Positions 27,530 through 53,043 of a stretch of 64,000 nt of DNA are shown in pieces (within the stretch, counting starts at the first letter, position 1; every line of letters begins with the position of its first letter). The notes beneath the pieces are model-generated. The model ran no database searches. It saw only the letters and a list, made by a program, of their open reading frames with translations, and was not told the origin of the DNA. Source of the DNA: Escherichia coli (GTDB lineage: Bacteria; Pseudomonadota; Gammaproteobacteria; Enterobacterales; Enterobacteriaceae); assembly GCF_030013205.1 (NCBI RefSeq), contig NZ_CP122648.1; one strand, given 5' to 3'. The position numbers and the translations under genes were made by a program.

Positions 27530-28487
27530 GTTGTAATCGTTGTTGCTGAAGGGTCGGCTGGGTTATCCGATGGATGAGTACATCAATCGCCAGCTCCCCC
27601 AGTTCATCTTTCGGTTGGTGGATAGTGGTTAATGGTGGCGTCATAAAGCTTGCCAGTTCGATATCGTCATAGCCAATCACCGCGATATCCTGCGGAACCT
27701 GTAACTCTGCCTGATACAGCGCCTGGTAAACGCCAACAGCCATAGCGTCATTTCCGGTAAAGACGGCCTGAGGACGCAGCGGATGTGATAACAGTTGGCG
27801 CATGGCGTCAAACCCGCCGTTAAATTCAAAATCACCAGTGACTTCATAGCCATCAGGAATGTTGAGGCCCGCACGTTTCATCGCCGCCCGATAACCTTCC
27901 AACCGCAGGCGCGCCGGAGTTTTATCCAGCGGACCGGTAATACAGGCGATACGGGTATGACCTTTATCGATCAGATATTGCGTTGCTAAGTCTCCGCCCA
28001 GCAACGAGTTATCCTGAATAAGATCGCTGTCGCCATCGAACGGAGCCCAGTCCATCATCACAGTAGGCACTGTCGGATAACGTTGCATGATTTCACGCGA
28101 AGGTTGATGCGTTTCGGTGCACAGTAACAGCAAGCCATCAACGCGTTTTTGCATCAGCGTTTCCAGATTGCGATTCATCCGCTGTTCATCGCCTTCGGTA
28201 TTGCAAAGGACGAGACTATAACCGCGTTCGAAGCAGCTGCGTTCAACGCCACGCACTAGTTCTGAATAGAAAGGATTGGTACTGGCAGTGATCAACATGC
28301 CAATGGTATGTGTTTGATTGAGCTTGAGGCTACGCGCCAGAGCTGATGGCGCGTAATTGAGTTCTTTAATCGCCGCTTCAACTTTGGCGGTAATCGCTTC
28401 ACTGACGAAGCGATCTTTATTGATAACGTGAGAAACTGTTGAGGTAGAAACGCCCGCCAGGCGGGCAACATCTTTCATTGTAGCCAA
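27495..28487 (-). CDS. rbsR: Ribose operon repressor (LacI family)
   Basis: [23 protein letters not shown] LacI-type HTH; 330 aa; 3' end overlaps hsrA 3' end by 35 bp. Confidence 0.9.
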
Positions 28488-28490
28488 GCG

Positions 28491-29420: not shown

Positions 29421-29545
29421 ATTCGGGATGTCCATAAAATGCGCCACCGTGTTAGGGTGGCGCGTGCCCTGCTTTTCTTTATATTACACGTTCATCTGTC
29501 GATGCCGTATTTATGTCACCATCAGGTCATACAACCTGATTAAAA

Positions 29546-30436
29546 CTACTGCTTAACAACCAGTTTCAGATCAACCGGATACTTAGCCTGAACTTTCTCG
29601 CCTTTCAGTACTTTATCTGCGGTTTCGACGCCTTTCGCGCCAATCTGATCGGGTAGCTGAGCGATAGTCGCTGCTAGTTTGCCATCATTCACCGCTTTTT
29701 CGCCATCCGGTGTACCATCAAATCCGACGACCATCACATCCGATTTACCGGCAGTTTGCAGTGCGCGCAGCGCGCCCAGCGCCATTTCATCATTCTGCGC
29801 GAATACAGCCTGAACATCCGGATGTGCGGTCAACAGGTTCTGCATTACGTTCAAACCTTTAGTGCGATCAAAATCTGCTGGCTGGCTGGCAAGAACATTA
29901 AACTTGTGAGCAGCAACAGCCTGCTGGAAGCCTTCGCCACGTTCACGGGCTGCGGATGTACCGGCAATGCCTTGCAGCTCGATAACTTTGGCACCTTCAC
30001 CCGCTTTCTTCGCGATGTAATCACCGGCGATTTTGCCGCCCAGTACGTTATCAGAAGCAATGTGGCTCACCACTTCACCTTTCGTTGCCTGGCGGTCAAG
30101 AGTGATAACCGGGATGTTCGCCTGGTTAGCCATCTTCACAGCATTACCCACTGCGTCGGAGTCGGTCGGGTTAATCAGCAGAATTTTGGTGCCGCGAACG
30201 GTTAAGTCCTGCACGTTCGCCAGCTCTTTCGCCGGGTTGTTCTGGGAGTCCAGCACCACCAGGTTATAGCCAAGTTTATCCGCCTCTTTCTGCGCGCCAT
30301 CTTTCAGCGATACAAAGAACGGGTTGTTAAGCGTGGAGACCACCAGCGCGATGGTGTCTTTTGCCATCGCATTCGCACTGACGGTGGCGCTTAGCGCAAC
30401 AGCGGAAACCAGGGTAGCCAGTTTTTTCATGTTCAT
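29546..30436 (-). CDS. rbsB: Ribose ABC transporter periplasmic binding protein
   Basis: [25 protein letters not shown] signal peptide; 296 aa. Confidence 0.9.
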
Positions 30437-30460
30437 ATTCAAGATGTCCTGTAGTCGTTA

Positions 30461-31426
30461 TTACTGCTTTTTGTTGTCTACCAGCACCGCCAGCAAAATC
30501 ACCACCGCTTTGACGATCATCTGGTAATAGGAGGAAACACCTAACAAATTCAATCCATTATTAAGGAAGCCAAGAATTAATGCGCCGATCAACGTCCCAA
30601 CAATGCGACCTTTTCCGCCCGCCAGACTCGTACCGCCCAGAACCACCGCAGCAATAGCATCCAGCTCATAGCCAGTCCCCGCCGTGGGTTGTGCGGAGGA
30701 GAGACGCGCCACTTCAATGATCCCGGCCAGCGATGCCAGCAGACCACAAAGAGAATAGACGATGATTTTGATTTTATTGACGTTGATACCAGAAAGACGC
30801 GTTGCCGCTTCGTTGCCGCCCAGCGCGTAGATGTAACGCCCCAAACGCGTGTGATGCAGCATGTACCAGGCCGCGAGGAACACAATCCCCATGATCCAGA
30901 CTGGCGTCGGTACGCCCAGCGGACGACCGATCCCAAACCAGCCAAACAGATCGGCGTTCTCAGTAAAGCCGGTATTCACTGGGCTACCGTTGGTATAAAC
31001 CATGGTCACGCCGCGCAGTAAAAGCATCATAACCAGCGTAGCGATAAACGCCTGGACGCGACCTTTCGCTACAATCACCCCGGTTACCGCACCAATTGCG
31101 GCACCTAACGCGAGAGCGGCAGCGACAGCCACCAGCGCATTGACTTCAATGCCGACGATAGATGCAGCAACTGCGCCGGTCAGCGCCAATAGAGAACCTA
31201 CCGACAAGTCGATGCCCGACGTCAGGATCACCAGCGTCATCCCGACTGCCATAATGGCGTTCACCGAGGTTTGCTGGAGAATATTGAATAAGTTATTGAT
31301 GGTGAAAAAGTTCGGGCTTAACGTCGAGACAATCGCGATCAGCACCAGCAGAGCGATAAGCGATTTCTGCTCCATCAGCCACGCTTTCGTGAAATAACGG
31401 CGACCAGAGACAGTCTGGGTTGTCAT
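30461..31426 (-). CDS. rbsC: Ribose ABC transporter permease
   Basis: 321-aa polytopic membrane protein; operon position. Confidence 0.9.
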   Translation of the reverse strand: MTTQTVSGRRYFTKAWLMEQKSLIALLVLIAIVSTLSPNFFTINNLFNILQQTSVNAIMAVGMTLVILTSGIDLSVGSLLALTGAVAASIVGIEVNALVAVAAALALGAAIGAVTGVIVAKGRVQAFIATLVMMLLLRGVTMVYTNGSPVNTGFTENADLFGWFGIGRPLGVPTPVWIMGIVFLAAWYMLHHTRLGRYIYALGGNEAATRLSGINVNKIKIIVYSLCGLLASLAGIIEVARLSSAQPTAGTGYELDAIAAVVLGGTSLAGGKGRIVGTLIGALILGFLNNGLNLLGVSSYYQMIVKAVVILLAVLVDNKKQ

Positions 31427-31430
31427 TTTT

Positions 31431-32936
31431 TTACTCCTGATTCACGCGATTAAGCTTGCCCACAGCGGCAGCCATTAACACTTCCTGGGTGGCCTGCTCA
31501 CGAGTAAATTCCCCGCTGAGATGCCCTTCATGCATGACGATGATGCGATCGCTCATGCCTAATACTTCTGGCATCTCCGATGACACCAGAATGATGCTCA
31601 AGCCATCGGCTTTGAACTGGTTAATCAGTTGATAGATCTCTTTTTTCGCGCCGACATCTACGCCACGGGTAGGCTCATCGAGGATCAACACTTTGGGGCG
31701 TGTCATCAGACCACGGGCAATCGCCACTTTTTGCTGATTGCCACCGGAAAGCAGACCAATTGCCTGTTCCATCGACGGCGTTTTCACATTAAACAGACGA
31801 ATGAAATCACTTACTGCCTGCTGTTCATCGGCATGCTTCAAACTGCCGCCAGCGCGGCTGAAGTAGCGCAGCGCGGTCAGCGACATATTCTCTTTTACTG
31901 ACATGCCCAGCACTAAACCGTCACGTTTACGGTCTTCGGAGATATACACAATGCCGTTTGCCAGGCCATCCTGCGGTGAACGGGTAACAACTTCATGCCC
32001 ATCCAGGGTGACGTAACCGCTGGTGCGCGGCAGTGCGCCGTAGAGCACTTTCATCAGTTCGGTACGACCTGCGCCCATCAAACCAGAGACGCCAAGAATT
32101 TCGCCTTTGCGTAAAGTAAAAGAGACATCGTTAACGCCAGGTCCGCAGAGATTATCGACTTTCAGGCGAATATCTCCTGGCGCTTTGTCCAGGTGCGGAT
32201 ATTGATCTTCCAGCTTGCGGCCCACCATCATCTCAATCAGCGAATCTTCGGTCAGTGATGCTACTTCACGCTCAGCAATAAATTGCCCATCACGAAAAAC
32301 GGTAACGTCATCGCAAATCTCGAAGATTTCTTTCATGCGGTGGGAAATATAGACAATACCGCGGCCTTGCGATTTCAGCTCGCGGATGACGCGGAACAAG
32401 GATTCGGTTTCGGTATCGGTCAGCGCATCGGTCGGTTCATCCATAATGATGACTTTCGACTCAAAGCTCAGCACTTTGGCTATTTCAACCATTTGCTGGT
32501 CACCGATGGAAAGATCGCCCACTAACTTGTCGCTTTTAAAGCGCAGGTTAAGTTTAGCCAGCAATTTATCCGCTTCGGCATACATGGTTTTCCAGTCAAT
32601 TTTGCCAAAGCGATTAACAAACTCACGACCGAGGAAAATGTTTTCGGCAATGGTCAACTGCGGGATCAGGTTCAGTTCCTGATGGATAATCCCAATCCCG
32701 GCTTCCTGGGAAGATTTCGGCCCGGTAAACGTCGTTTCTTTCCCCAGCCATAAAAGCGTACCGGCATCGCGAGTATAGATACCCGTAAGCACTTTCATCA
32801 TGGTGGATTTACCCGCACCGTTTTCGCCCACCAGCGCCATCACGCGGCCAGGATAGACATTTAACGCTGCACCCGAGAGGGCTTTTACGCCCGGGAAGGC
32901 TTTATCGATGCCTTTAAGCTGAAGTAATGCTTCCAT
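31431..32936 (-). CDS. rbsA: Ribose ABC transporter ATP-binding protein (tandem ABC domains)
   Basis: Two Walker A motifs ([18 protein letters not shown]); 501 aa. Confidence 0.9.
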
Positions 32937-32943
32937 GACGGCC

Positions 32944-33363
32944 TCAGAACGTCACGCCAGCACAGAGAATGATATTCGCATACGGAGAACATTCTCCGCT
33001 GCGAATTACCGCCTGACTTTCTGCGGTTTGTTGTTTGAATTGTTCATGCGTGGTGTAACGAATTTCAATGGTATTTCCCTGGTGTTTTTGCAGCTGCTCA
33101 AGGTGAGTGAGCAACGTTTCGTGGAGTTGCGGATTATGTTGTTTGATCTCTTCCGCGATAATGGCTGCCTCGACCTGCATTTCATTTGTGACGACGCCCA
33201 GCACCTGCATAAAAGAAGGTACACCCTGGGTTAATGCCATATCGATACGCGTTGTACTTTTGGGGATGGGTAAACCTGCATCACACACCACCAGCGTATC
33301 GGTATGTCCCAGTCGGGAGATCACCGATGAAATATCAGAATTAAGAACGGTGCCTTTTTTCAT
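32944..33363 (-). CDS. rbsD: D-ribose pyranase
   Basis: ORF 32944..33375; preferred start [14 protein letters not shown] giving 139 aa. Confidence 0.9.
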
Positions 33364-33529
33364 TTTTTTCTCCATCAGCGAAACGTTTCGCTGACCCGCA
33401 GTTTAATCCTGACTGAGTTGGGAAAACCATCGTGAAGTTACGGAAATGTGATCAACCTCGAAACGTTTTACATGGTGATTAACCATGAAAACAAAAACGC
33501 CCCCTTATGGAGAAAGGAGGCGTCTGGCG

Positions 33530-35398
33530 TTAGATTTCGACCTGAGTACCCAGTTCGATAACCCTGTTTGGTGGGATTTCAAATTGATCCGGCGCACGCA
33601 GCGCATTACGTTGCAGCAGCAAGTACAGCTTGCCGCGCAGACGCAAATACCACGGGCGTTTGCCGAGGATCAACGACTCATGCGACATAAAGAAGGAGGT
33701 TTCCATCATCCGGCAACTTAATCCTTCCAGACCGCAGCGGTGGAATACTTCTTCCACGTTTGGCGTTTCTCGCCAACCATAACTTGCCACCACGCGCCAG
33801 AACGTGGGCGACAGTTGTTCAATCTGTACCCGACGGACGTTATGGACATAAGGCGCGTCTTCGGTGCGCAGAGTTAACAGAATCACCCGCTCATGCAATA
33901 CCTTGTTATGTTTAAGGTTATGCATCAGCGCAAAGGGAATGACGTTGATTGCACGCGACATATACACCGCGGTCCCGGGCACGCGAACGGGCGGTGATTT
34001 CTCCAGCGAAGCAATCATCGCCTCCAGAGAGTTACCATGTTCATGCATCCGCCGCAGCAAACGGAAACGTTCGCTCTTCCAGGTGGTCATCACGATAAAC
34101 ATCACCGTACCGAGGCTCAATGGCAACCAGCCGCCGGAGAGCAGTTTATCGAGGTTAGCGGTGAACAATGGAATATCGACACAAAGGAAAGCAATCAGGA
34201 TCAGCGCAACAAAATACTTATTCCAGTGCCAGTTCTGACGCGCCACGGTAGTCGAGAGAATAGACGTCAGCACCATGGTTCCGGTCACCGCAATCCCGTA
34301 CGCCGCCGCCAGGTTGCTGGAGTGCTCAAAGCTGACAATCACAATCACGACCGCGACATAGAGCATCCAGTTCACAAACGGAATATAGATTTGCCCTGAC
34401 TCCATTTCGGAGGTGTGAATAATGCGCATCGGCGACAAATATCCCAGACGTACCGCCTGACGCGTCAATGAGAAGACGCCAGAGATAACCGCCTGCGAGG
34501 CAATTACCGTCGCCAGTGCGGCGATGATCAGCAGCGGGATCAGCGCCCAGTCCGGTGCCAACAGGAAGAACGGGTTCTTAATCGCTTCCGGGTTCTTTAA
34601 CAACAACGCTCCCTGACCGAAGTAATTAAGGGTCAAGGAAGGTAATACGACGGTGAACCACGCCAGGCGAATAGGGAACTTACCAAAGTGCCCCATATCA
34701 GCATACAGCGCCTCGACCCCCGTAATCGACAGCACCACTGCCCCTAATGCAATAAAAGAAACCGTTTTGTATTCAAGGAAGAAATGCACCGCCCACATCG
34801 GATTCAGCGCATGCAGCACTTCCGGGTTAGCAATAATGCTACGTAACCCCAGTACTGCCAGAATCAAAAACCAGGTCAGCATGATCGGCGCAAACAGCTT
34901 ACCGACCATAGCCGTGCCATGTTTTTGAATCATAAATAGTAAAGTGAGAACGATGATTGAGAGGGGAACTATCCAGGTATCCAGCTGCGGGGCGACGATT
35001 TCCAGACCTTCAATGGCTGACATCACCGAAATAGCGGGTGTTATGACGACTTCACCATAGAAAAAGCTGCCGCCGATTAGCCCCATAATCACCAGCATTG
35101 ATGTGGTTCGCGCCGACGTATTACGCCCGGCAAGCGACATCAACGTCAGGATCCCCCCTTCACCGGCGTTATCTGCCCGCATCACGAAGGTGAGATATTT
35201 AATGGAAACCACAAAGATTAGCAGCCAGAAGATCAGCGATAAAAAGCCAAACACGGCATCGCGTTCAACGCCAAAACCAAACTGGCCGGACAAACATTCA
35301 CGAAGTGTATATAACGGGCTGGTACCAATATCGCCGTAGACAACTCCAATCGCCGCGAGGGTAATCGCGGGCAATGATTGCTTATTATCAGTGCTCAT
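33530..35398 (-). CDS. kup: Potassium uptake protein Kup (TrkD)
   Basis: 622-aa membrane protein starting [31 protein letters not shown]. Confidence 0.9.
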
Positions 35399-35620
35399 AG
35401 ACTAGTCTTTCGTTGAAATATGAAATGTGTGCTTAGTCCCTTGGCCCACAAAAAAGCGCACAGTATGCACGATTAACGGCAAAATCGTACTCCTAAATGC
35501 GGCCACATTAACCTGGCTCAAAGAAAAATACCCCCCCTTTGAGACTATTTTAGCCACCAGCAAGAAACGTCTATACTCGCAATTTACGCAGAACTTTTGA
35601 CGAAAGGACGCCACTTCATT

Positions 35621-37117
35621 ATGGCTCACCCTCATTTATTAGCGGAAAGAATTTCCCGCCTGAGCAGTTCGTTGGAAAAGGGGCTTTATGAACGTAGCCA
35701 CGCCATCCGCTTGTGTTTATTAGCGGCATTAAGTGGTGAAAGTGTGTTCCTCCTTGGCCCGCCAGGCATTGCCAAAAGTTTGATCGCCCGGCGCTTAAAA
35801 TTCGCCTTTCAGAATGCCCGCGCGTTTGAATATCTGATGACCCGCTTCTCCACGCCGGAAGAGGTTTTTGGTCCCCTTTCTATTCAGGCGCTAAAAGATG
35901 AAGGGCGCTATGAACGTTTAACCAGCGGTTACCTGCCGGAAGCAGAAATCGTCTTTCTGGATGAGATCTGGAAAGCGGGCCCGGCAATTCTTAATACCTT
36001 GCTCACCGCCATTAACGAGCGCCAGTTCCGCAACGGTGCACACGTAGAAAAAATCCCGATGCGCCTGCTGGTGGCGGCCTCCAACGAGCTGCCGGAAGCA
36101 GACAGCAGTCTGGAAGCGTTATATGACCGCATGCTGATTCGTCTGTGGTTAGATAAAGTGCAGGATAAAGCGAATTTCCGCTCCATGCTGACCAGTCAAC
36201 AGGATGAAAACGACAATCCGGTTCCTGCCTCCTTGCAGGTCACAGATGAAGAATATGAACGCTGGCAGAAAGAGATTGGTGAAATTACGCTGCCCGATCA
36301 TGTATTTGAGCTGATTTTTATGCTGCGCCAGCAACTGGATAAATTACCGGATGCGCCTTATGTCTCGGATCGTCGCTGGAAAAAAGCGATCCGCTTATTG
36401 CAGGCCAGCGCCTTTTTTAACGGTCGCAGTGCTGTTGCCCCGGTTGATCTCATTTTGCTGAAAGATTGCCTGTGGTATGACGCGCAAAGCCTGAATTTGA
36501 TACAACAACAAATTGATGTATTGATGACCGGTCATGCCTGGCAACAGCAAGGGATGTTGACCCGCCTGGGCGCGATTGTGCAACGTCACCTGCAACTACA
36601 GCAGCAACAAAGCGATAAAACAGCCTTAACGGTAATTCGTCTGGGCGGCATTTTCAGCCGTCGTCAGCAGTATCAACTCCCTGTTAACGTTACTGCTTCC
36701 ACTCTGACTCTGCTGCTGCAAAAACCGTTAAAACTGCATGATATGGAAGTGGTTCATATCTCCTTTGAGCGTAACGCGCTGGAACAGTGGCTGAGTAAAG
36801 GTGGTGAAATTCGCGGCAAACTGAACGGTATCGGCTTTGCTCAGAAATTGAATCTGGAAGTGGATAGCGCCCAACATCTTGTTGTACGCGATGTAAGTTT
36901 ACAAGGCAGTACGTTGGCACTTCCCGGTTCATCGGCTGAAGGTCTGCCAGGTGAAATAAAACAACAACTGGAAGAGCTTGAAAGCGACTGGCGCAAGCAA
37001 CACGCTTTATTCAGCGAACAGCAAAAATGTCTGTTTATCCCTGGCGACTGGTTAGGTCGCATTGAAGCCAGCCTACAGGATGTCGGCGCACAGATTCGCC
37101 AGGCACAACAATGCTAA
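35621..37117 (+). CDS. ravA: AAA+ ATPase RavA
   Basis: [14 protein letters not shown]... with Walker [11 protein letters not shown]; 498 aa from ATG 35621. Confidence 0.9.
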
Positions 37118-38562
37118 CGCTGGATACGCTTAATGTGATGCTGGCCGTCAGCGAAGAGGGATTGATCGAAGAGATGATCATCGCGCTGCTGGCCTCACCG
37201 CAGCTGGCAGTCTTCTTTGAAAAATTCCCACGACTGAAGGCGGCAATCACTGATGATGTTCCCCGCTGGCGTGAGGCGCTGCGCAGTCGGCTGAAAGATG
37301 CCCGAGTCCCGCCGGAACTCACCGAAGAGGTGATGTGCTATCAGCAAAGCCAGCTCCTCTCCACGCCGCAGTTTATTGTGCAGCTACCACAGATCCTGGA
37401 CTTACTGCATCGTCTGAATTCCCCATGGGCAGAACAAGCCCGACAGTTGGTTGATGCTAACAGCACGATCACTTCAGCGTTACACACGCTTTTTCTCCAG
37501 CGTTGGCGTTTAAGTCTGATCGTGCAAGCAACGACGTTAAATCAACAGCTATTAGAAGAAGAACGCGAACAACTGTTGAGTGAAGTTCAGGAACGCATGA
37601 CGCTGAGCGGACAACTTGAACCGATTCTCGCAGATAACAATACCGCAGCTGGTCGTCTGTGGGATATGAGCGCCGGTCAGCTTAAACGTGGCGACTATCA
37701 GTTGATTGTGAAATACGGTGAATTTCTTAACGAACAGCCGGAACTGAAACGCCTGGCAGAACAGCTGGGGCGTTCCCGGGAAGCCAAATCAATACCGCGC
37801 AACGATGCGCAGATGGAAACCTTCCGCACCATGGTGCGCGAACCGGCGACGGTTCCTGAGCAGGTTGATGGTCTGCAACAAAGCGATGATATTTTACGTC
37901 TCCTGCCGCCAGAACTGGCGACACTAGGGATAACAGAACTGGAGTATGAGTTTTACCGTCGGCTGGTGGAAAAACAGTTGCTCACCTATCGCCTGCACGG
38001 TGAGTCGTGGCGAGAAAAAGTGATCGAACGTCCGGTGGTACATAAAGATTACGACGAACAGCCGCGCGGACCGTTTATTGTCTGTGTGGATACTTCCGGC
38101 TCAATGGGCGGCTTTAATGAACAGTGTGCGAAAGCGTTCTGCCTGGCCTTGATGCGCATTGCTCTCGCTGAAAACCGGCGCTGCTATATTATGCTATTTT
38201 CCACCGAGATCGTCCGTTATGAGCTTTCAGGCCCACAAGGCATCGAACAAGCGATCCGCTTTTTAAGTCAGCAGTTTCGTGGCGGCACCGATCTGGCCAG
38301 TTGTTTTCGCGCCATTATGGAACGCTTGCAAAGTCGGGAGTGGTTTGACGCCGATGCGGTGGTGATTTCTGATTTTATCGCCCAGCGGTTGCCTGACGAC
38401 GTGACGAGCAAAGTGAAAGAGTTGCAGCGGGTACATCAGAATCGCTTTCATGCCGTGGCGATGTCGGCACATGGCAAACCCGGCATCATGCGCATTTTCG
38501 ATCATATCTGGCGCTTTGATACCGGGATGCGAAGCCGCCTGCTCAGACGCTGGCGGCGATAA
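37111..38562 (+). CDS. viaA: VWA-domain protein ViaA (YieM)
   Basis: 483-aa ORF overlapping the ravA stop; C-terminal VWA-like DTSGSM motif. Confidence 0.9.
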
Positions 38563-38566
38563 ACAA

Positions 38567-39559
38567 TTACAGCAGAGAAGGGACGCTCTCGCGAACAGCT
38601 GCCGGCCATACACCACACTGAACCTGGCCGATATGCGGCAGTTGCAGCAGCAGCATGGTCAAACGAGACTGGCCGATACCGCCGCCGATGGTCTGCGGCA
38701 TTTCACCGCGCAGCAGCGCCTGATGCCACTCCAGCTGCAGACGATCTTCATCACCGGTCAGCGCCAGCTGATGCTTCAACGTATCGGCATCCACGCGGAT
38801 CCCCATGGAAGAAAGCTCAAACGCATCTTCCAGTACCGGGTTCCATACCAGAATATCGCCGTTCAGACCCGCATGGCCCAGCTCTGACGGGGTGCTCCAG
38901 TCATCATAATCCGGTGCGCGCACGTCGTGACGATGACCATCACTCAACTTGCCGCCAATCCCGACGAGGAATACCGCGCCAAGATCTTTCGCAATCGCCC
39001 GCTCACGCCCTTTGGCATCGAGATCCGGATAACGAGACAGTAACTCCTGGCTGTGTACGAAGTGGATCTGATCCGGCAGGAACGGTGCCAGGCCAAACTC
39101 TTCGCTAACCGCAGCTTCGGTTGCTTTAATTCCCGCCCAGATCGCCTCTACCGTGCTTTTCAGAGTCGAGAATTGACGCTCGCCGTCGCCCATTACGCGT
39201 TCCCAGTCCCACTGGTCTACATAGACCGAGTGCAACGGAGAAAGACGGTCTTCATCGGGGCGAAGGGCTTTCATGTGCGTGTACAGCCCTTCGCCCGCGC
39301 TGAAGTCGTGTTGCCCTAAGGTCTGACGTTTCCACTTCGCCAGTGAATGAACCACTTCGAACTGGGCATCAGGCAGAGCTTTTACTTTTACCTGCACCGC
39401 TTTTTCACAGCCCGACAAGTTATCCTGCGTGCCATCCCCCACACGGCTAAGAATCGGCGCCTGGACTTCGATCAGCCCCAGACGTTCTTCCAGTTGACGA
39501 GAAAAGTGAGATTTCACGAAGCTAATTTGGCGTTGTTTGGCAATGTAAGCGGTTTTCAT
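38567..39559 (-). CDS. asnA: Aspartate--ammonia ligase (asparagine synthetase A)
   Basis: 330-aa ORF starting [35 protein letters not shown]. Confidence 0.9.
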
Positions 39560-39710
39560 TTTTTATACTCCTGCGTCCTGTTGCTTATGATTAAGCAACA
39601 AAAACCGGCACACATGCAATAATCATTCAATAAAAAGCCTAACTCACTTTTGATTCATTAAAAAAGAAGGCTAAAATAGAATGAATCATCAATCCGCATA
39701 AGAAAATCCT

Positions 39711-40169
39711 ATGGAAAATTATCTAATCGACAATCTGGACCGTGGCATCCTGGAAGCATTAATGGGCAATGCGCGCACCGCTTACGCCGAACTGGCGAAA
39801 CAATTTGGCGTCAGTCCGGGGACGATTCACGTTCGAGTAGAGAAAATGAAGCAGGCGGGAATCATTACCGGGGCGCGTATTGATGTCAGCCCGAAGCAGC
39901 TTGGTTATGACGTAGGCTGCTTTATCGGCATTATATTAAAGAGCGCCAAAGACTATCCTTCCGCGCTGGCAAAGCTGGAAAGCCTCGATGAAGTCACTGA
40001 AGCCTATTACACAACCGGCCACTACAGCATCTTTATAAAAGTGATGTGCCGTTCGATCGATGCTCTCCAGCATGTACTTATCAACAAGATCCAAACAATT
40101 GATGAAATTCAGTCCACCGAGACACTGATCGTCCTGCAGAACCCGATCATGCGTACCATTAAGCCCTGA
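39711..40169 (+). CDS. asnC: Lrp/AsnC-family regulator AsnC
   Basis: 152-aa ORF divergent from asnA. Confidence 0.9.
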   Translation: MENYLIDNLDRGILEALMGNARTAYAELAKQFGVSPGTIHVRVEKMKQAGIITGARIDVSPKQLGYDVGCFIGIILKSAKDYPSALAKLESLDEVTEAYYTTGHYSIFIKVMCRSIDALQHVLINKIQTIDEIQSTETLIVLQNPIMRTIKP

Positions 40170-40258
40170 TCGGCTTTTTTAATCCCATACTTTTCCACAG
40201 GTAGATCCCAACGCGTTCACAGCGTACAATACGCCACTCTTAATAAAGGTGGCGGTTT

Positions 40259-40702
40259 ATGGCAGATATCACTCTTATCAGCGGCAGCACCCTCGGCGGT
40301 GCCGAATATGTGGCAGAACACCTGGCTGAAAAGCTGGAAGAGGCGGGTTTTACCACCGAAACGCTGCACGGTCCGCTGTTGGAAGATTTATCTGCCTCGG
40401 GGATCTGGCTGGTTATCAGCTCAACCCACGGTGCCGGAGATATTCCGGATAACCTTTCTCCTTTCTATGAAGCATTGCAGGAACAGAAGCCCGATCTTTC
40501 TGCGGTCCGCTTTGGCGCTATCGGTATTGGCAGTCGTGAATATGACACCTTTTGTGGGGCTATCGATAAACTCGAGGCAGAACTCAAAAATTCCGGTGCA
40601 AAACAGACAGGCGAAACACTGAAGATCAACATTCTTGATCACGACATTCCGGAAGATCCGGCAGAAGAATGGCTGGGATCGTGGATTAATTTACTCAAAT
40701 AA
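40259..40702 (+). CDS. mioC: Flavodoxin-like protein MioC
   Basis: 147-aa ORF immediately upstream of oriC. Confidence 0.9.
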   Translation: MADITLISGSTLGGAEYVAEHLAEKLEEAGFTTETLHGPLLEDLSASGIWLVISSTHGAGDIPDNLSPFYEALQEQKPDLSAVRFGAIGIGSREYDTFCGAIDKLEAELKNSGAKQTGETLKINILDHDIPEDPAEEWLGSWINLLK

Positions 40703-40710
40703 GTATACAG

Positions 40711-40992
40711 ATCGTGCGATCTACTGTGGATAACTCTGTCAGGAAGCTTGGATCAACCGGTAGTTATCCAAAGAACAACCGTTGTTCAGTTTTTGAGTTG
40801 TGTATAACCCCTCATTCTGATCCCAGCTTATACGGTCCAGGATCACCGATCATTCACAGTTAATGATCCTTTCCAGGTTGTTGATCTTAAAAGCCGGATC
40901 CTTGTTATCCACAGGGCAGTGCGATCCTAATAAGAGATCACAATAGAACAGATCTCTAAATAAATAGATCTTCTTTTTAATACCCAGGATCC
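40711..40992. other. oriC: Chromosomal replication origin oriC (DnaA boxes, AT-rich 13-mers, clustered GATC sites)
   Basis: TGTGGATAA/TTATCCACA DnaA boxes at ~40725 and ~40905; 13-mers gatctnttnttt at ~40930-40980; more than 10 GATC within ~280 bp; sits between mioC and mnmG. Confidence 0.9.
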
Positions 40993-41080
40993 CAGGTCTT
41001 TCTCAAGCCGACAAAGTTGAGTAGAATCCACGGCCCGGGCTTCAATCCATTTTCATACCGCGTTATGCGAGGCAATCACC

Positions 41081-42970
41081 ATGTTTTATCCGGATCCTTT
41101 TGACGTCATCATCATTGGCGGGGGTCATGCAGGCACCGAGGCCGCGATGGCCGCGGCGCGTATGGGTCAACAGACTCTGCTTTTGACACACAATATCGAC
41201 ACTCTGGGGCAGATGAGCTGCAACCCGGCGATCGGCGGTATTGGGAAGGGACATCTGGTAAAAGAAGTGGATGCACTCGGCGGTCTGATGGCGAAAGCGA
41301 TCGATCAGGCGGGTATCCAGTTTAGGATACTAAACGCAAGCAAGGGGCCAGCGGTTCGCGCTACCCGTGCTCAGGCGGATCGTGTGCTCTACCGGCAGGC
41401 GGTACGTACGGCGCTGGAGAACCAACCGAACCTGATGATCTTCCAGCAGGCGGTTGAAGATCTTATTGTCGAAAACGATCGCGTGGTCGGTGCTGTTACC
41501 CAAATGGGACTGAAGTTCCGTGCCAAAGCCGTCGTGCTCACCGTTGGGACGTTCCTCGACGGTAAAATTCATATCGGTCTGGATAACTACAGCGGTGGCC
41601 GTGCTGGTGATCCGCCGTCCATTCCGCTCTCTCGCCGTTTGCGTGAACTGCCGCTGCGCGTTGGTCGTCTGAAAACCGGGACACCGCCGCGTATTGATGC
41701 GCGTACTATCGACTTCAGCGTGCTGGCGCAACAGCATGGCGATAACCCAATGCCGGTATTCTCGTTTATGGGCAATGCGTCCCAGCATCCACAGCAGGTG
41801 CCGTGTTATATCACCCATACCAACGAGAAAACCCATGATGTGATCCGCAGTAACCTCGATCGTAGCCCAATGTATGCAGGGGTGATCGAAGGTGTCGGCC
41901 CACGCTACTGCCCGTCGATCGAAGACAAAGTCATGCGCTTCGCCGACAGAAATCAGCATCAGATCTTCCTTGAACCGGAAGGGCTGACCTCAAACGAAAT
42001 TTATCCGAACGGTATCTCCACCAGCCTGCCGTTCGATGTGCAGATGCAAATCGTCCGCTCCATGCAGGGGATGGAAAACGCGAAGATCGTACGTCCGGGT
42101 TATGCCATTGAGTATGACTTCTTCGATCCACGCGACCTGAAACCGACGCTGGAGAGCAAGTTTATCCAGGGGCTGTTCTTTGCTGGTCAGATTAACGGCA
42201 CTACCGGTTACGAAGAAGCCGCTGCGCAAGGTTTGCTGGCTGGTCTTAACGCTGCCCGTCTGTCTGCTGACAAAGAAGGTTGGGCTCCGGCGCGTTCTCA
42301 GGCGTATCTCGGCGTACTGGTTGATGACCTGTGCACTTTAGGAACCAAAGAACCGTATCGTATGTTTACTTCGCGCGCAGAATATCGTCTGATGCTGCGC
42401 GAAGATAATGCGGATCTGCGTTTGACTGAAATCGGTCGTGAACTGGGCCTGGTGGATGACGAACGTTGGGCGCGCTTTAACGAGAAACTTGAGAATATCG
42501 AGCGTGAGCGTCAGCGTCTGAAATCGACCTGGGTAACCCCGTCGGCGGAAGCTGCAGCCGAAGTGAATGCTCACCTGACTGCGCCGCTTTCCCGTGAAGC
42601 CAGTGGTGAAGATCTGCTGCGTCGTCCGGAAATGACTTATGAAAAATTAACCACGCTGACGCCGTTTGCCCCTGCGTTGACAGACGAACAGGCGGCGGAA
42701 CAGGTTGAGATTCAGGTTAAATACGAAGGTTATATCGCGCGCCAGCAAGATGAGATCGAAAAGCAGCTGCGTAACGAGAACACCCTGCTACCAGCGACGC
42801 TGGATTACCGCCAGGTATCCGGTCTTTCTAACGAAGTGATCGCCAAACTTAACGATCACAAACCGGCCTCTATCGGCCAGGCTTCGCGTATTTCTGGCGT
42901 CACGCCTGCGGCCATCTCCATTCTGCTGGTATGGCTGAAAAAACAGGGTATGCTGCGTCGTAGCGCATAA
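41081..42970 (+). CDS. mnmG: tRNA uridine 5-carboxymethylaminomethyl modification enzyme MnmG (GidA)
   Basis: 629 aa; FAD-binding [13 protein letters not shown] motif. Confidence 0.9.
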
Positions 42971-43033
42971 CGCATTAAAAATGCCTGGTAAGCACCCGCT
43001 TACCGGGCAACGCATCAAGAACAGGTAATCACC

Positions 43034-43657
43034 GTGCTCAACAAACTCACCTCTCTGCTGAAAGACGCAGGAATTTCGCTTACCGATCACCAGAAAAACC
43101 AGCTAATTGCCTACGTGAATATGCTGCATAAATGGAATAAAGCGTACAACCTGACTTCGGTCCGCGATCCTAATGAGATGCTGGTACGCCATATTCTCGA
43201 TAGCATTGTGGTGGCACCGTATCTGCAAGGTGAACGGTTTATCGATGTCGGCACCGGACCAGGACTGCCTGGCATTCCACTCTCTATCGTGCGTCCTGAA
43301 GCCCACTTCACGTTGTTGGATAGCCTTGGTAAACGCGTGCGTTTCCTTCGTCAGGTGCAACATGAGCTTAAACTGGAGAATATTGAGCCAGTACAGAGCA
43401 GGGTAGAAGAGTTTCCTTCAGAGCCGCCATTTGATGGCGTAATTAGCCGCGCTTTTGCCTCTCTGAACGATATGGTGAGCTGGTGCCACCATCTTCCTGG
43501 TGAGCAAGGTCGTTTCTACGCGCTGAAAGGCCAAATGCCGGAAGATGAAATCGCTTTGTTGCCCGAAGAATATCAGGTCGAATCAGTGGTTAAACTTCAC
43601 GTTCCGGCCCTGGATGGCGAACGTCATCTGGTGGTGATTAAAGCAAATAAAATTTAA
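43034..43657 (+). CDS. rsmG: 16S rRNA m7G527 methyltransferase RsmG (GidB)
   Basis: 207 aa; SAM-binding [10 protein letters not shown] motif. Confidence 0.9.
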
Positions 43658-44273
43658 TTTTTATCAAAAAAATCATAAAAAATTGACCGGTTAGACTGTT
43701 AACAACAACCAGGTTTTCTACTGATATAACTGGTTACATTTAACGCCACGTTCACTCTTTTGCATCAACAAAGTAACGTGGCTTTTTTTGGTAAGCAGAA
43801 AATAAGTCATAAGTGAAAATATCAGTCTGCTAAAAATCGGCGCTAAGAATCATCATTTGCTGTTAAAACATTATTAAAAATGTCAATGGGTGGTTTTTGT
43901 TGTGTAAGTGTCATTTATTAAAACAGTATCTGTTTTTAGACTGAAATATCATAAACTTGCAAAGGCATCATTTGCCAAGTAAATAAATATGCTGTGCGCG
44001 AACATGCTCAATATGTGATCTGAAGCACGCTTTATCACCAGTGTTTACGCGTTATTTACAGTTTTTCATGATCGAACAGGGTTTGCAGAAAAGTCGCAAT
44101 TGTATGCACTGGAAAAATATTTAAACATTTATTCACCTTTTGGCTACTTATTGTTTGAAATCACGGGGGCGCACCGTATAATTTGACCGCTTTTTGATGC
44201 TTGACTCTAAGCCTTAAAGAAAGTTTTATACGACACGCGGCATACCTCGAAGGGAGCAGGAGTGAAAAACGTG

Positions 44274-45478
<1,205 letters not shown>

Positions 45479-45506
45479 TTTACCAACACTACTACGTTTT
45501 AACTGA

Positions 45507-45781
<275 letters not shown>

Positions 45782-45825
45782 TAAAGAGCAATATCAGAAC
45801 GTTAACTAAATAGAGGCATTGTGCT

Positions 45826-46296
45826 GTGAATCTTAACGCAACAATCCTCGGCCAGGCCATCGCGTTTGTCCTGTTCGTTCTGTTCTGCATGAAGTACGTA
45901 TGGCCGCCATTAATGGCAGCCATCGAAAAACGTCAAAAAGAAATTGCTGACGGCCTTGCTTCCGCAGAACGAGCACATAAGGACCTTGACCTTGCAAAGG
46001 CCAGCGCGACCGACCAGCTGAAAAAAGCGAAAGCGGAAGCCCAGGTAATCATCGAGCAGGCTAACAAACGCCGCTCGCAGATTCTGGACGAAGCGAAAGC
46101 TGAGGCAGAACAGGAACGTACTAAAATCGTGGCCCAGGCGCAGGCGGAAATTGAAGCCGAGCGTAAACGTGCCCGTGAAGAGCTGCGTAAGCAAGTTGCT
46201 ATCCTGGCTGTTGCTGGCGCCGAGAAGATCATCGAACGTTCCGTGGATGAAGCTGCTAACAGCGACATCGTGGATAAACTTGTCGCTGAACTGTAA
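45826..46296 (+). CDS. atpF: F0F1 ATP synthase subunit b
   Basis: 156 aa; N-terminal TM helix then charged coiled coil. Confidence 0.9.
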
Positions 46297-46310
46297 GGAG
46301 GGAGGGGCTG

Positions 46311-46844
46311 ATGTCTGAATTTATTACGGTAGCTCGCCCCTACGCCAAAGCAGCTTTTGACTTTGCCGTCGAACACCAAAGTGTAGAACGCTGGCAGGAC
46401 ATGCTGGCGTTTGCCGCCGAGGTAACCAAAAACGAACAAATGGCAGAGCTTCTCTCTGGCGCGCTTGCGCCAGAAACGCTCGCCGAGTCGTTTATCGCAG
46501 TTTGTGGTGAGCAACTGGACGAAAACGGTCAGAACCTGATTCGGGTAATGGCCGAAAATGGTCGTCTTAACGCGCTCCCGGATGTTCTGGAGCAGTTTAT
46601 TCACCTGCGTGCCGTGAGTGAGGCTACCGCTGAGGTAGACGTCATTTCCGCTGCCGCATTGAGTGAACAACAGCTCGCGAAAATTTCTGCTGCGATGGAA
46701 AAACGTCTGTCACGCAAAGTTAAGCTGAATTGCAAAATCGATAAGTCTGTAATGGCAGGCGTTATCATCCGAGCGGGTGATATGGTCATTGATGGCAGCG
46801 TACGCGGTCGTCTTGAGCGCCTTGCAGACGTCTTGCAGTCTTAA
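46311..46844 (+). CDS. atpH: F0F1 ATP synthase subunit delta
   Basis: 177 aa; operon order. Confidence 0.9.
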
Positions 46845-46856
46845 GGGGACTGGAGC

Positions 46857-48398
46857 ATGCAACTGAATTCCACCGAAATCAGCGAACTGATCAAGCAGCG
46901 CATTGCTCAGTTCAATGTTGTGAGTGAAGCTCACAACGAAGGTACTATTGTTTCTGTAAGTGACGGTGTTATCCGCATCCACGGCCTGGCCGATTGTATG
47001 CAGGGTGAAATGATCTCCCTGCCGGGTAACCGTTACGCTATCGCACTGAACCTCGAGCGCGACTCTGTAGGTGCGGTTGTTATGGGTCCGTACGCTGACC
47101 TTGCCGAAGGCATGAAAGTTAAGTGTACTGGCCGTATCCTGGAAGTTCCGGTTGGCCGTGGCCTGCTGGGCCGTGTGGTTAACACTCTGGGTGCACCAAT
47201 CGATGGTAAAGGTCCGCTGGATCACGACGGCTTCTCTGCTGTAGAAGCAATCGCTCCGGGCGTTATCGAACGTCAGTCCGTAGATCAGCCGGTACAGACC
47301 GGTTATAAAGCCGTTGACTCCATGATCCCAATCGGTCGTGGTCAGCGTGAATTGATCATCGGTGACCGTCAGACCGGTAAAACCGCACTGGCTATCGATG
47401 CCATCATCAACCAGCGCGATTCCGGTATCAAATGTATCTATGTCGCTATCGGCCAGAAAGCGTCCACCATTTCTAACGTGGTACGTAAACTGGAAGAGCA
47501 CGGCGCACTGGCTAACACCATCGTTGTGGTAGCAACCGCGTCTGAATCCGCTGCACTGCAATACCTGGCACCGTACGCTGGTTGCGCAATGGGCGAATAC
47601 TTCCGTGACCGCGGTGAAGATGCGCTGATCATTTACGATGACCTGTCTAAACAGGCTGTTGCTTACCGTCAGATCTCCCTGCTGCTCCGTCGTCCGCCAG
47701 GACGTGAAGCATTCCCGGGCGACGTATTCTACCTCCACTCTCGTCTGCTGGAGCGTGCTGCGCGTGTTAACGCCGAATACGTTGAAGCCTTCACCAAAGG
47801 TGAAGTGAAAGGGAAAACCGGTTCTCTGACCGCGCTGCCGATTATCGAAACTCAGGCGGGTGACGTTTCTGCGTTCGTTCCAACCAACGTAATCTCCATT
47901 ACCGATGGTCAGATCTTCCTGGAAACCAACCTGTTCAACGCCGGTATTCGTCCTGCGGTTAACCCGGGTATTTCCGTATCCCGTGTTGGTGGTGCAGCAC
48001 AGACCAAGATCATGAAAAAACTGTCCGGTGGTATCCGTACCGCTCTGGCACAGTATCGTGAACTGGCAGCGTTCTCTCAGTTTGCATCCGACCTTGACGA
48101 TGCAACACGTAAGCAGCTTGACCACGGTCAGAAAGTGACCGAACTGCTGAAACAGAAACAGTATGCGCCGATGTCCGTAGCGCAACAGTCTCTGGTTCTG
48201 TTCGCAGCAGAACGTGGTTACCTGGCGGATGTTGAACTGTCGAAAATCGGCAGCTTCGAAGCCGCTCTGCTGGCTTACGTCGACCGTGATCACGCTCCGT
48301 TGATGCAAGAGATCAACCAGACCGGTGGCTACAACGACGAAATCGAAGGCAAGCTGAAAGGCATCCTCGATTCCTTCAAAGCAACCCAATCCTGGTAA
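46857..48398 (+). CDS. atpA: F0F1 ATP synthase subunit alpha
   Basis: 513 aa; Walker [10 protein letters not shown]. Confidence 0.9.
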
Positions 48399-48448
48399 CG
48401 TCTGGCGGCTTGCCTTAGGGCAGGCCGCAAGGCATTGAGGAGAAGCTC

Positions 48449-50721
<2,273 letters not shown>

Positions 50722-50741
50722 CGCCTTAATCGGAGGGTGAT

Positions 50742-51161
50742 ATGGCAATGACTTACCACCTGGACGTCGTCAGTGCAGAGCAACAAATGTTCTCTGGTCT
50801 GGTCGAGAAAATCCAGGTAACGGGTAGCGAAGGTGAACTGGGGATCTACCCTGGCCACGCACCGCTGCTCACCGCCATTAAGCCTGGTATGATTCGCATC
50901 GTGAAACAGCACGGTCACGAAGAGTTTATCTATCTGTCTGGCGGCATTCTTGAAGTGCAGCCTGGCAACGTGACCGTTCTGGCCGACACCGCAATTCGCG
51001 GCCAGGATCTCGACGAAGCGCGAGCCATGGAAGCGAAACGTAAGGCTGAAGAGCACATTAGCAGCTCTCACGGCGACGTAGATTACGCTCAGGCGTCTGC
51101 GGAACTGGCCAAAGCGATCGCGCAGCTGCGCGTTATCGAGTTGACCAAAAAAGCGATGTAA
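50742..51161 (+). CDS. atpC: F0F1 ATP synthase subunit epsilon
   Basis: 139 aa; operon order. Confidence 0.9.
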
Positions 51162-51180
51162 CACCGGCTTGAAAAGCACA

Positions 51181-51215
51181 AAAGCCAGTCTGGAAACAGG
51201 CTGGCTTTTTTTTAC
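51181..51215 (+). terminator. atp operon intrinsic terminator
   Basis: agccagtctggaaacaggctggc hairpin followed by a T run. Confidence 0.7.
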
Positions 51216-51511
51216 GCGTTGCCCCGTCCTGAATAGCGTTCACATAGATCCTGCTGATATAAAACACCCTGTTTTCCCGTTTATTCATTGATCGAAATAA
51301 GAGCAAAAACATCCACCTGACGCTTAAATGAAGGTATTGCCTTATTTTTCTGCAGACAAAAGGCGTGACGATGGTCGAAAATGGCGCTTTCGTCAGCGGG
51401 GATAATCCGTTATTGAACAATTTATCCTCTGTCCATTTCACGATGAAAAAAATGTAGTTTTTTCAAGGTGAAGCGGTTTAAATTCGTTCTCAAATTACAG
51501 TCAGGACGCGT

Positions 51512-52882
51512 ATGTTGAATAATGCTATGAGCGTAGTGATCCTTGCCGCAGGCAAAGGCACGCGCATGTATTCCGATCTTCCGAAAGTGCTGCATACCCT
51601 TGCCGGGAAAGCGATGGTTCAGCATGTCATTGATGCTGCGAATGAATTAGGCGCGGCGCACGTTCACCTGGTGTACGGTCACGGCGGCGATCTGCTTAAA
51701 CAGGCGCTGAAAGATGACAACCTGAACTGGGTGCTTCAGGCAGAACAGCTGGGTACAGGTCATGCGATGCAGCAGGCCGCACTTTTCTTTGCCGATGATG
51801 AAGACATTTTAATGCTCTACGGCGACGTGCCGCTGATCTCTGTCGAAACACTCCAGCGCCTGCGTGATGCTAAACCGCAGGGTGGCATTGGTCTGCTGAC
51901 GGTAAAACTGGATGATCCGACCGGTTATGGACGTATCACCCGTGAAAACGGCAAAGTTACCGGCATTGTTGAGCACAAAGACGCCACCGACGAGCAGCGT
52001 CAGATTCAGGAGATCAACACCGGCATTCTGATTGCCAACGGCGCAGATATGAAACGCTGGCTGGCGAAGCTGACCAACAATAACGCTCAGGGTGAATACT
52101 ACATCACCGACATTATTGCGCTGGCGTATCAGGAAGGGCGTGAAATCGTCGCCGTTCATCCGCAACGTTTAAGCGAAGTAGAAGGCGTGAATAACCGCCT
52201 GCAACTCTCCCGACTGGAGCGCGTTTACCAGTCCGAACAGGCTGAAAAACTGCTGTTAGCAGGCGTTATGCTGCGCGATCCGGCGCGTTTTGATCTGCGC
52301 GGTACGCTTACTCACGGGCGCGATGTTGAAATTGATACTAACGTTATCATCGAGGGCAACGTGACTCTCGGTCATCGCGTGAAAATCGGCACCGGTTGCG
52401 TGATTAAAAACAGCGTGATTGGCGATGATTGCGAAATTAGCCCGTATACCGTTGTGGAAGATGCGAATCTGGCAGCGGCCTGTACCATTGGCCCGTTTGC
52501 CCGTCTGCGTCCTGGTGCTGAGTTGCTGGAAGGTGCACACGTCGGTAACTTCGTTGAGATGAAAAAAGCGCGTCTGGGTAAAGGCTCGAAAGCTGGTCAT
52601 CTGACTTACCTGGGCGATGCGGAAATTGGCGATAACGTTAACATCGGCGCGGGAACCATTACCTGCAACTACGATGGTGCGAATAAATTTAAGACCATTA
52701 TCGGTGACGATGTGTTTGTCGGTTCCGACACTCAGCTGGTGGCCCCGGTTACAGTAGGCAAAGGCGCGACCATTGCTGCGGGTACAACTGTGACGCGTAA
52801 TGTCGGCGAAAACGCCCTGGCGATCAGCCGTGTGCCGCAGACTCAAAAAGAAGGCTGGCGTCGTCCGGTAAAGAAAAAGTAA
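51512..52882 (+). CDS. glmU: Bifunctional GlcNAc-1-P uridylyltransferase / GlcN-1-P acetyltransferase
   Basis: 456 aa; N-terminal LAAGKGTRM nucleotidyltransferase motif and C-terminal hexapeptide repeats. Confidence 0.9.
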
Positions 52883-53043
52883 TTCTGGCCGGGTAATACG
52901 GTCATATGGGATGAGGAGATAACATAATCTCCCGCCCACAAGCAGTAACTATAAAAATAACCCCACTCTCTACAAGGCTCGGGGCGCCCGAAAAAACGGG
53001 CATACAGGTTGACCGACAACGATATAAATCGGAATCAAAAACT

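What the first reader, a model, noticed from the sequence alone, without database searches (positions are those of the whole stretch)
40711..40992. The chromosomal origin oriC lies in this window
DnaA boxes, three AT-rich 13-mers and a dense GATC cluster sit between mioC and mnmG. This is well established, but it means both insertions described here lie close to the origin (about 24 kb and 14 kb away) and would be present at elevated copy number in fast-growing cells.
Basis: established knowledge. Interest (0 to 1): 0.25.

Follow-up and report, generated by a model that had tools for sequence, protein, structure and literature searches.

The report
The E. coli replication origin, oriC
This is the ordinary, intact chromosomal replication origin (oriC) of Escherichia coli, one base different from the textbook K-12 origin, so it is correctly identified and not new.

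Summary
Window 40725-40970 is the 245-bp minimal oriC of E. coli, read on the minus strand relative to the classic map, between mioC (40259-40702) and mnmG/gidA (41081-42970).

- **Identity to K-12:**
- **Elements intact:** all three 13-mers, the AT cluster, DnaA boxes R1, R2, R3, R4 and R5M, and the stretches I assign to the low-affinity boxes are identical to K-12.
- **GATC cluster:** 11 sites lie in the minimal origin, against 1.1 expected.
- **The one difference:** A to G at window 40780, on the unspecified centre base of the Fis consensus match between R2 and C3. That allele is exact in 1269 of 5404 complete E. coli genomes, at a position that varies across Enterobacterales.
- **GC skew:** cumulative skew reaches its minimum at 41113.
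- **Conservation:** in 114 Enterobacterales species, R2 and R4 boxes sit at fixed distances from R1 in 106 and 107 species.
- **The two insertions:** a 14.7-kb integrase island splits yifB 23.8 kb from oriC, and Tn7 sits at attTn7 13.9 kb away. Both should replicate at essentially origin dosage.

Everything here is already known. The only oddity found in passing is a one-base frameshift in maoP.

The parts
40725..40970 (-). Minimal oriC (classic positions 268-23). The K-12 RefSeq oriC feature 3925744-3925975 maps to 40739-40970.
   Evidence: Alignment to K-12 is 439/441 identical over 40650-41090, with one difference inside oriC. The 501-bp stretch is found in 5424 of 5426 complete E. coli genomes, always on chromosomes.
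40974..40985 (-). AT-rich 12-bp cluster flanking the L 13-mer, just outside minimal oriC
   Evidence: GGGTATTAAAAA, identical to K-12. The element is named in PMC10380432.
40958..40970 (-). 13-mer L of the duplex-unwinding element
   Evidence: GATCTATTTATTT, 10/11 to the consensus GATCTNTTNTTTT and identical to K-12.
40942..40954 (-). 13-mer M
   Evidence: GATCTGTTCTATT, 10/11 to the consensus and identical to K-12.
40927..40939 (-). 13-mer R
   Evidence: GATCTCTTATTAG, 9/11 to the consensus and identical to K-12. Mean 94% identity across 114 Enterobacterales species.
40905..40913 (+). DnaA box R1 (high affinity, perfect consensus)
   Evidence: TTATCCACA on the + strand.
40874..40886 (-). Core of the IHF-binding site between R1 and R5M
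   Evidence: GATCAACAACCTG, 11/13 to WATCAANNNNTTR, the only match with at most 2 mismatches between R1 and R5M. Identical to K-12.
40850..40858 (+). DnaA box R5M
   Evidence: TCATTCACA, one mismatch to the consensus.
40817..40847 (+). Left low-affinity array: tau2 (40839-40847), I1 (40828-40836), I2 (40817-40825), each 2 bp apart
   Evidence: Identical to K-12, and 82-91% mean identity across 114 species. The box coordinates are my assignment from the 2-bp spacing rule and memory of the literature.
40799..40807 (-). DnaA box R2
   Evidence: TTATACACA, perfect consensus. It starts 106 bp after the start of R1 in 106 of 114 species.
40773..40787 (.). Fis consensus 15-mer between R2 and C3, carrying the only difference from K-12 inside oriC (40780; classic position 213, A to G)
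   Evidence: GAACAACGGTTGTTC still fits GNNYANNNNNTRNNC, and the change is at the central N. The allele is exact in 1269 of 5404 genomes. The position is G 59, A 39, C 16, T 1 among the 115 aligned sequences, the window included.
40737..40778 (-). Right low-affinity array: C3 (40770-40778), C2 (40759-40767), I3 (40748-40756), C1 (40737-40745), with box R3 (40764-40772, + strand) overlapping C3 and C2
   Evidence: All identical to K-12. R3 is TTATCCAAA, one mismatch. The box coordinates are partly from memory.
40725..40733 (-). DnaA box R4 (high affinity, perfect consensus)
   Evidence: TTATCCACA. It starts 180 bp after the start of R1 in 107 of 114 species.
40259..40702 (+). mioC, transcribed towards and into oriC
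   Evidence: NCBIfam NF006531 MioC, 244.9 bits against a cut-off of 158.
40191..40199 (+). One-mismatch DnaA box upstream of mioC
   Evidence: TTTTCCACA. The whole stretch 40170-40258 is identical to K-12.
41081..42970 (+). mnmG (gidA), transcribed away from oriC
   Evidence: TIGR00136 mnmG_gidA, 1017 bits.
41000..41027 (+). Promoter-like site in front of mnmG, in the position expected for the gidA promoter
   Evidence: TTCTCA-16-TAGAAT, 9/12 matches. The scan as a whole is not above shuffles (2 found, 1.7 expected), so this is weak evidence alone. The sequence is identical to K-12.

Best explanation
This is the single, functional chromosomal replication origin of an E. coli strain. The closest complete genome is porcine ETEC4079.

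The mechanism is taken from work on the near-identical K-12 origin and was not shown here. DnaA sits on the high-affinity boxes R1, R2 and R4. ATP-DnaA then fills the two opposed low-affinity arrays: R5M-tau2-I1-I2 on the left and C3-C2-I3-C1 on the right. IHF bends the DNA between R1 and R5M, so the left DnaA oligomer engages and opens the AT-rich 13-mers. DnaB helicases are loaded there for bidirectional replication. After firing, the 11 Dam sites are hemimethylated and bound by SeqA, which blocks re-initiation. Fis has at most a small effect on initiation at the site between R2 and C3.

The one base that differs from K-12 lies at the unspecified centre of that Fis site. It is a common natural allele.
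For:
- **Synteny:** asnA-asnC-mioC-oriC-mnmG-rsmG-atp is preserved.
- **Copy number:** the 501-bp stretch is present in 5424 of 5426 complete E. coli genomes, with a median of one place per genome and never on a plasmid.
- **Enrichment:** GATC and DnaA-box densities are far above background.
- **GC skew:** the cumulative G-C minimum is at window 41113, 143 bp from the unwinding element. Skew is -0.034 to the left and +0.040 to the right of oriC.
- **Conservation not imposed by my search pattern:** in 114 Enterobacterales species, R2 is at +106 in 106 and R4 at +180 in 107. Named elements are 74-97% conserved, except I3 (62%) and C1 (40%), against 52-58% for spacers. Of the 10 GATC sites in the minimal origin that my pattern did not fix, 8 are kept in at least 99 of 114 species.
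- **Mechanism:** from PMC5716108, PMC10380432 and PMC5742627.
Against: Nothing in the sequence argues against it. Function was not measured: there is no marker-frequency or minichromosome test. The A-to-G change adds a G:C pair to the centre of the Fis site, which could weaken Fis binding (inference from memory of Fis structural studies). PMC4585315 reports the oriC Fis site as fully conserved in 59 strains. So either their site boundaries differ from my consensus match, or this position was not counted. I could not see their figure.
Confidence: 0.97

Rival explanations
1. The origin is functional, but the G allele at 40780 measurably changes its regulation: weaker Fis binding between R2 and C3 alters initiation timing or growth-phase control compared with K-12.
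For: The change is at the centre of the only Fis consensus match between R2 and C3. From memory of the literature, Fis prefers A/T-rich centres. The allele is frequent, at 1269 of 5404 genomes.
Against: The Fis consensus is still met. PMC10380432 states that Fis binding at oriC does not, or only slightly, influence initiation. The position is free to vary across Enterobacterales, and only 24 of 114 species keep the Fis consensus there. Among those 24, the centre ACGGT seen here (8 species) is commoner than the K-12 centre ACAGT (3 species).
Confidence: 0.07
2. The motif cluster is a chance or relic oriC-like sequence, and the active origin lies elsewhere.
For: None found.
Against: The enrichments have P values of 1e-6 to 1e-8. 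The region is near-identical to the experimentally defined K-12 origin. It is a single chromosomal copy in nearly all E. coli genomes, sits at the GC-skew minimum, and its geometry is conserved across the order.
Confidence: 0.01

Closest known systems
oriC of Escherichia coli K-12 MG1655 (RefSeq feature NC_000913.3:3925744-3925975; classic 245-bp minimal origin)
   Same: Same position between mioC and mnmG. The 13-mers, AT cluster, all named DnaA boxes, the IHF region and all 11 GATC sites are identical. Identity is 231/232 in the annotated feature.
   Different: One substitution, classic position 213 A to G (window 40780), at the centre of the Fis consensus match. A second difference at window 40685 lies inside mioC, outside oriC. 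The window is in the opposite orientation to the K-12 record.
oriC of other E. coli lineages, for example O157:H7 and strain 120899
   Same: The 501 bp around oriC are 100% identical in many complete genomes. The G allele is shared with O157:H7 strain PV15-279 and 1268 others.
   Different: Nothing within oriC.
Enterobacterales oriC family (Salmonella, Citrobacter, Klebsiella, Serratia, Yersinia, Photorhabdus and others)
   Same: A 46-bp spacer between R1 and R5M, R2 starting 106 bp and R4 180 bp after the start of R1, GATC-headed 13-mers, and 9-11 GATC per origin in 104 of the 114 species.
   Different: Spacers, the Fis region and boxes I3 and C1 diverge between genera, at 40-62% identity to the window base.

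Membership tests
E. coli-type (enterobacterial) oriC | Located in the mioC-mnmG(gidA) intergenic region, within the asnA-asnC-mioC / mnmG-rsmG-atp synteny | tested here: met
   ORFs and NCBIfam equivalog hits for MioC, MnmG, RsmG and AsnC. The RefSeq annotation of matching records agrees.
E. coli-type (enterobacterial) oriC | Duplex-unwinding element of three AT-rich 13-mers, each starting with GATC | tested here: met
   L, M and R at 40958-70, 40942-54 and 40927-39. They score 9-10 of 11 to the consensus, are identical to K-12 and are 73% A+T.
E. coli-type (enterobacterial) oriC | [quoted passage not shown] | tested here: met
   R1 is on the + strand at 40905-13. R4 and R2 are on the - strand at 40725-33 and 40799-807. 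The start-to-start distances of 180 and 106 bp are shared with 107 and 106 of 114 species.
E. coli-type (enterobacterial) oriC | Two opposed arrays of low-affinity DnaA sites: R5M, tau2, I1, I2 and C3, C2, I3, C1 | tested here: met
   Every stretch is identical to K-12. The names and the count of 12 boxes come from PMC5716108. The exact coordinates of the low-affinity boxes are my assignment. tau1 was not placed individually but lies in sequence identical to K-12.
E. coli-type (enterobacterial) oriC | Eleven Dam (GATC) sites in the 245-bp minimal origin | tested here: met
   Exactly 11 in 40725-40970 against 1.14 expected.
E. coli-type (enterobacterial) oriC | IHF site between R1 and R5M, and Fis site between R2 and C3 | tested here: met
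   The IHF core matches its consensus at 11/13 and is identical to K-12. The Fis consensus is retained, with a changed central base.
E. coli-type (enterobacterial) oriC | GC-skew polarity switch at the origin | tested here: met
   The cumulative G-C minimum is at 41113. Skew is negative to the left and positive to the right of oriC, apart from the inserted island.
E. coli-type (enterobacterial) oriC | DnaA-dependent initiation of bidirectional replication in vivo (marker-frequency peak, or autonomous replication of a minichromosome) | not testable with these tools
   No read coverage or experiment was available.

The most novel reading that the evidence does not exclude
The G allele at the centre of the oriC Fis site, carried by about a quarter of complete E. 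coli genomes including O157:H7, is a functional regulatory variant. It would weaken Fis binding and shift initiation control relative to the K-12 laboratory reference.
Probability: 0.07. Interest if true: 0.25.

Novelty: already known. Interest (0 to 1): 0.04.

Why it matters
It matters mainly as orientation for the rest of the window. It fixes the replication direction on each side: forks move leftwards below about 40.7 kb and rightwards above about 41.0 kb.

It also shows that the two mobile elements sit at essentially origin dosage. The 14.7-kb island in yifB is transcribed head-on to the fork, whereas the Tn7 tns genes are co-directional. As a discovery it adds nothing, because E. coli oriC is among the best-characterised DNA elements known.

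Tried and rejected
- **IHF consensus:** a strict regex for WATCAANNNNTTR found no exact match in oriC. The accepted site fits only at 11/13, as in K-12, so this is not a defect.
- **Promoter and terminator scan of 40100-41150:** gave nothing above shuffles, 2 found against 1.7 expected. I do not lean on the promoter-like site in front of mnmG.
- **Rfam scan of the whole window:** no RNA family in or next to oriC.
- **Literature on the position-213 variant:** I found no description of it. PMC4585315 reports the oriC Fis site as conserved in 59 strains, which I could not reconcile without its figure.
- **Identity to ETEC4079:** I first assumed the window was identical to this record. It is not, because one extra base in maoP shifts coordinates by 1 after window 18337.
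- **Coordinates from memory:** two were off by one (R2 and 13-mer M) and were corrected from the scans.
- **Chance cluster and relic-origin readings:** rejected on statistics, synteny, skew and conservation.

Full report
**Observation**

The interval 40711-40992 lies between two ORFs on the + strand, 40259-40702 and 41081-42970. NCBIfam equivalog models identify them as MioC (244.9 bits, cut-off 158) and MnmG/GidA (1017 bits, cut-off 525). AsnC lies upstream and RsmG downstream.

I aligned 40650-41090 (reverse complement) with K-12 MG1655 around its annotated origin_of_replication feature, NC_000913.3:3925744-3925975. The alignment is 439/441 identical with no gaps. In the classic oriC numbering, position 1 is the first G of the left BamHI site, so classic position n equals window 40992-n+1.

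- The 245-bp minimal origin is window 40725-40970.
- The RefSeq feature is window 40739-40970.

The two differences are classic 213 A to G (window 40780) and classic 308 C to T (window 40685, inside mioC).

**Is it more than chance?**

Yes, on each measure.

| Measure | Observed at oriC | Expected or background |
|---|---|---|
| GATC sites in the minimal origin (246-bp frame) | 11 | 1.14 (Poisson P about 4e-8); best stretch away from the origin holds 6 |
| Perfect TTATNCACA boxes | 3 of the 6 in the window (R1, R2, R4) | 0.012 (P about 3e-7) |
| Boxes with at most one mismatch, in 189 bp | 5 | 0.17 (P about 9e-7) |
| A+T of the 44-bp unwinding element | 73% | 50% for the window; only 0.7% of backbone 44-bp windows are as AT-rich |

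GATC occurs 297 times in the 64 kb, or once per 215 bp.

**Anatomy**

- **13-mers.** L (40958-40970), M (40942-40954) and R (40927-40939) are identical to K-12. So is the AT cluster at 40974-40985.
- **Left side.** R1 (40905-40913) is followed 46 bp later by R5M (40850-40858). Then come tau2, I1 and I2 at 2-bp intervals.
- **Middle and right side.** R2 is at 40799-40807. The right array is C3, C2, I3, C1 and R4 (40725-40733), with R3 overlapping C3 and C2.
- **Source of the box names.** The names and the count of 12 DnaA boxes come from PMC5716108. The exact coordinates of the low-affinity boxes are my assignment from the spacing rule and memory. What the data show directly is that every base of these stretches equals K-12.
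- **IHF.** The core GATCAACAACCTG (40874-40886) is the only match to the IHF consensus with at most 2 mismatches between R1 and R5M.
- **Fis.** The single Fis consensus match in oriC is GAACAACGGTTGTTC (40773-40787). It lies between R2 and C3, where PMC10380432 places the Fis site. The only intra-origin difference from K-12 is its central, unspecified base.

No DnaA box, 13-mer or GATC site is altered.

**The one variant**

A 61-bp query centred on 40780 matches exactly in 1269 of 5404 complete E. coli genomes, including O157:H7. The K-12 strains in the spread listing differ from the query by one base.

Among the 115 aligned sequences (114 Enterobacterales origins plus the window) the position is G 59, A 39, C 16, T 1. 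Only 24 of the 114 species keep a Fis consensus there. Among those 24, the centre ACGGT seen here (8 species) is commoner than the K-12 centre ACAGT (3 species). Citrobacter amalonaticus and Salmonella enterica subsp. arizonae have G.

This is a common, probably neutral polymorphism in the least constrained part of the origin. PMC10380432 states that Fis binding at oriC has little or no effect on initiation. PMC4585315 surveyed 59 strains and reported high conservation of oriC, with a fully conserved Fis site. Its site limits presumably differ from my consensus match.

**Independent support**

- **Copy number.** The 501 bp around oriC occur in 5424 of 5426 complete E. coli genomes. All places are on chromosomes, the median is one per genome, and 5188 genomes are at least 99% identical.
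- **GC skew.** The cumulative G-C curve has its global minimum at window 41113. Skew is -0.034 for 25000-40724 and +0.040 for 40971-54875.
- **Cross-species scan.** The 80 printed are almost all Enterobacterales, and 79 of them have the 46-bp spacing.
- **Geometry.** In the 114 usable origins, features not imposed by my pattern are conserved. An R2-type box starts 106 bp after the start of R1 in 106 species, and an R4-type box 180 bp after it in 107.
- **Elements against spacers.** The named boxes and 13-mers are 74-97% identical to the window base, except I3 (62%) and C1 (40%). Spacers are 52-58%.
- **GATC sites.** One of the 11 sites in the minimal origin was fixed by my pattern. Of the other 10, 8 are kept in at least 99 of 114 species.

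**Mechanism**

This is inferred from K-12 work and was not tested here. DnaA occupies R1, R2 and R4. ATP-DnaA then extends along the two opposed low-affinity arrays. IHF bends the R1-R5M interval, so the left DnaA pentamer can bind and hold the unwound 13-mers. DnaB is then loaded for bidirectional replication. After initiation, SeqA binds the hemimethylated GATC cluster and blocks re-initiation (PMC5716108, PMC10380432, PMC5742627).

**The dosage remark**

Against K-12, the window has two insertions.

- **Island, 2204-16900.** It is 14.7 kb and splits yifB. Its near edge is 23.8 kb from R4.
- **Everything from 54876 onward.** The Tn7 right end, TGTGGGCGGACAA, starts at 54899. That is 25 nt after the glmS stop codon and 13.9 kb from the unwinding element.

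With C = 40 min and the 5.18-Mb chromosome of the closest record, both are at 98-99.8% of origin dosage. That is 3.9-fold, 2.5-fold and 1.6-fold the terminus dosage at doubling times of 20, 30 and 60 min. Tn7 is there because TnsD targets glmS, which is established knowledge. Proximity to oriC is most simply a by-product of that targeting.

**Verdict**

The finding is accurately located, correctly interpreted and entirely known.

Noticed in passing
window 18334-18337 (maoP, - strand, ORF 18323-18628): The window is identical to E. coli ETEC4079 (NZ_CP122643.1, from record position 5078873) except for one extra base in a T run, TTTT against TTT. This frameshifts maoP, the Ori-macrodomain organiser. 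The protein ends ...SGGKTAG (101 aa) instead of ...[18 protein letters not shown] (112 aa) as in K-12 and ETEC4079. The same allele is in only 2 of 5425 complete genomes (ETEC4070 and ETEC6333, porcine strains from the same accession series); I checked ETEC4070, which is Belgian, and there RefSeq marks maoP 'frameshifted' and yifB is intact. Real mutation or homopolymer assembly error is undecided.
   Followed up: partly
window 2204-16900: A 14.7-kb integrative island splits yifB: the 5' fragment ends near 2205 and the 3' part resumes at 16901. A 10-bp direct repeat, AATAGCGGAT, sits at 2194 and 16907. The annotated genes in the matching record are a tyrosine integrase, HTH regulator, AntA/AntB, Icd-like, RepA-family helicase, ProQ/FinO, PerC, NUDIX, DUF2213 and a 2-kb lytic transglycosylase. 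All but one small gene are on the + strand, so they are transcribed head-on to forks leaving oriC. GC skew is +0.09, opposite to the surrounding replichore. Only 2 complete E. coli genomes carry at least 80% of the query (the island plus about 400 bp of flank on each side) at one place.
   Followed up: partly
window 54899-64000: Classical Tn7 sits at attTn7. The Tn7R end TGTGGGCGGACAA starts 25 nt after the glmS stop, followed by tnsA-E on the + strand, co-directional with replication. In the matching record, beyond the window end, the element continues with a class 2 integron (sat2, frameshifted aadA1, intI2 with an internal stop, no dfrA1 annotated) and then the lpf-O113 fimbrial operon. GC is 44%.
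   Followed up: partly
window 40191-40199: A one-mismatch DnaA box (TTTTCCACA) lies 60-68 bp upstream of the mioC start codon, in a stretch identical to K-12. It fits the known DnaA control of mioC transcription into oriC, which I cite from memory.
   Followed up: no
window 40624-40721: The GATC-rich zone extends beyond minimal oriC. Six further GATC sites lie in the last 80 bp of mioC and the 25 bp to the right of R4, so a 246-bp frame can hold 12.
   Followed up: no
window 51271-51428 (-), 1461-1750 (-), 23018-23126 (-): Rfam gathering-score hits outside oriC: sRNA STnc410 between atpC and glmU, the Rev39 5'UTR family over the ilv leader region, and StyR-44 in the rrn operon. There is also a complete rrn operon with tRNA-Glu, tRNA-Asp and tRNA-Trp at 19684-24906. 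All are ordinary for this chromosomal region.
   Followed up: no
L084 (Marinobacter sp. S0848L), 2443-2507: This is the only listed hit of the R1-gap-R5M pattern from a named genus outside Enterobacterales (one further hit is a MAG labelled only 'Proteobacteria'), and it has a 45-bp rather than 46-bp spacer. Chance match or a related origin was not examined.
   Followed up: no
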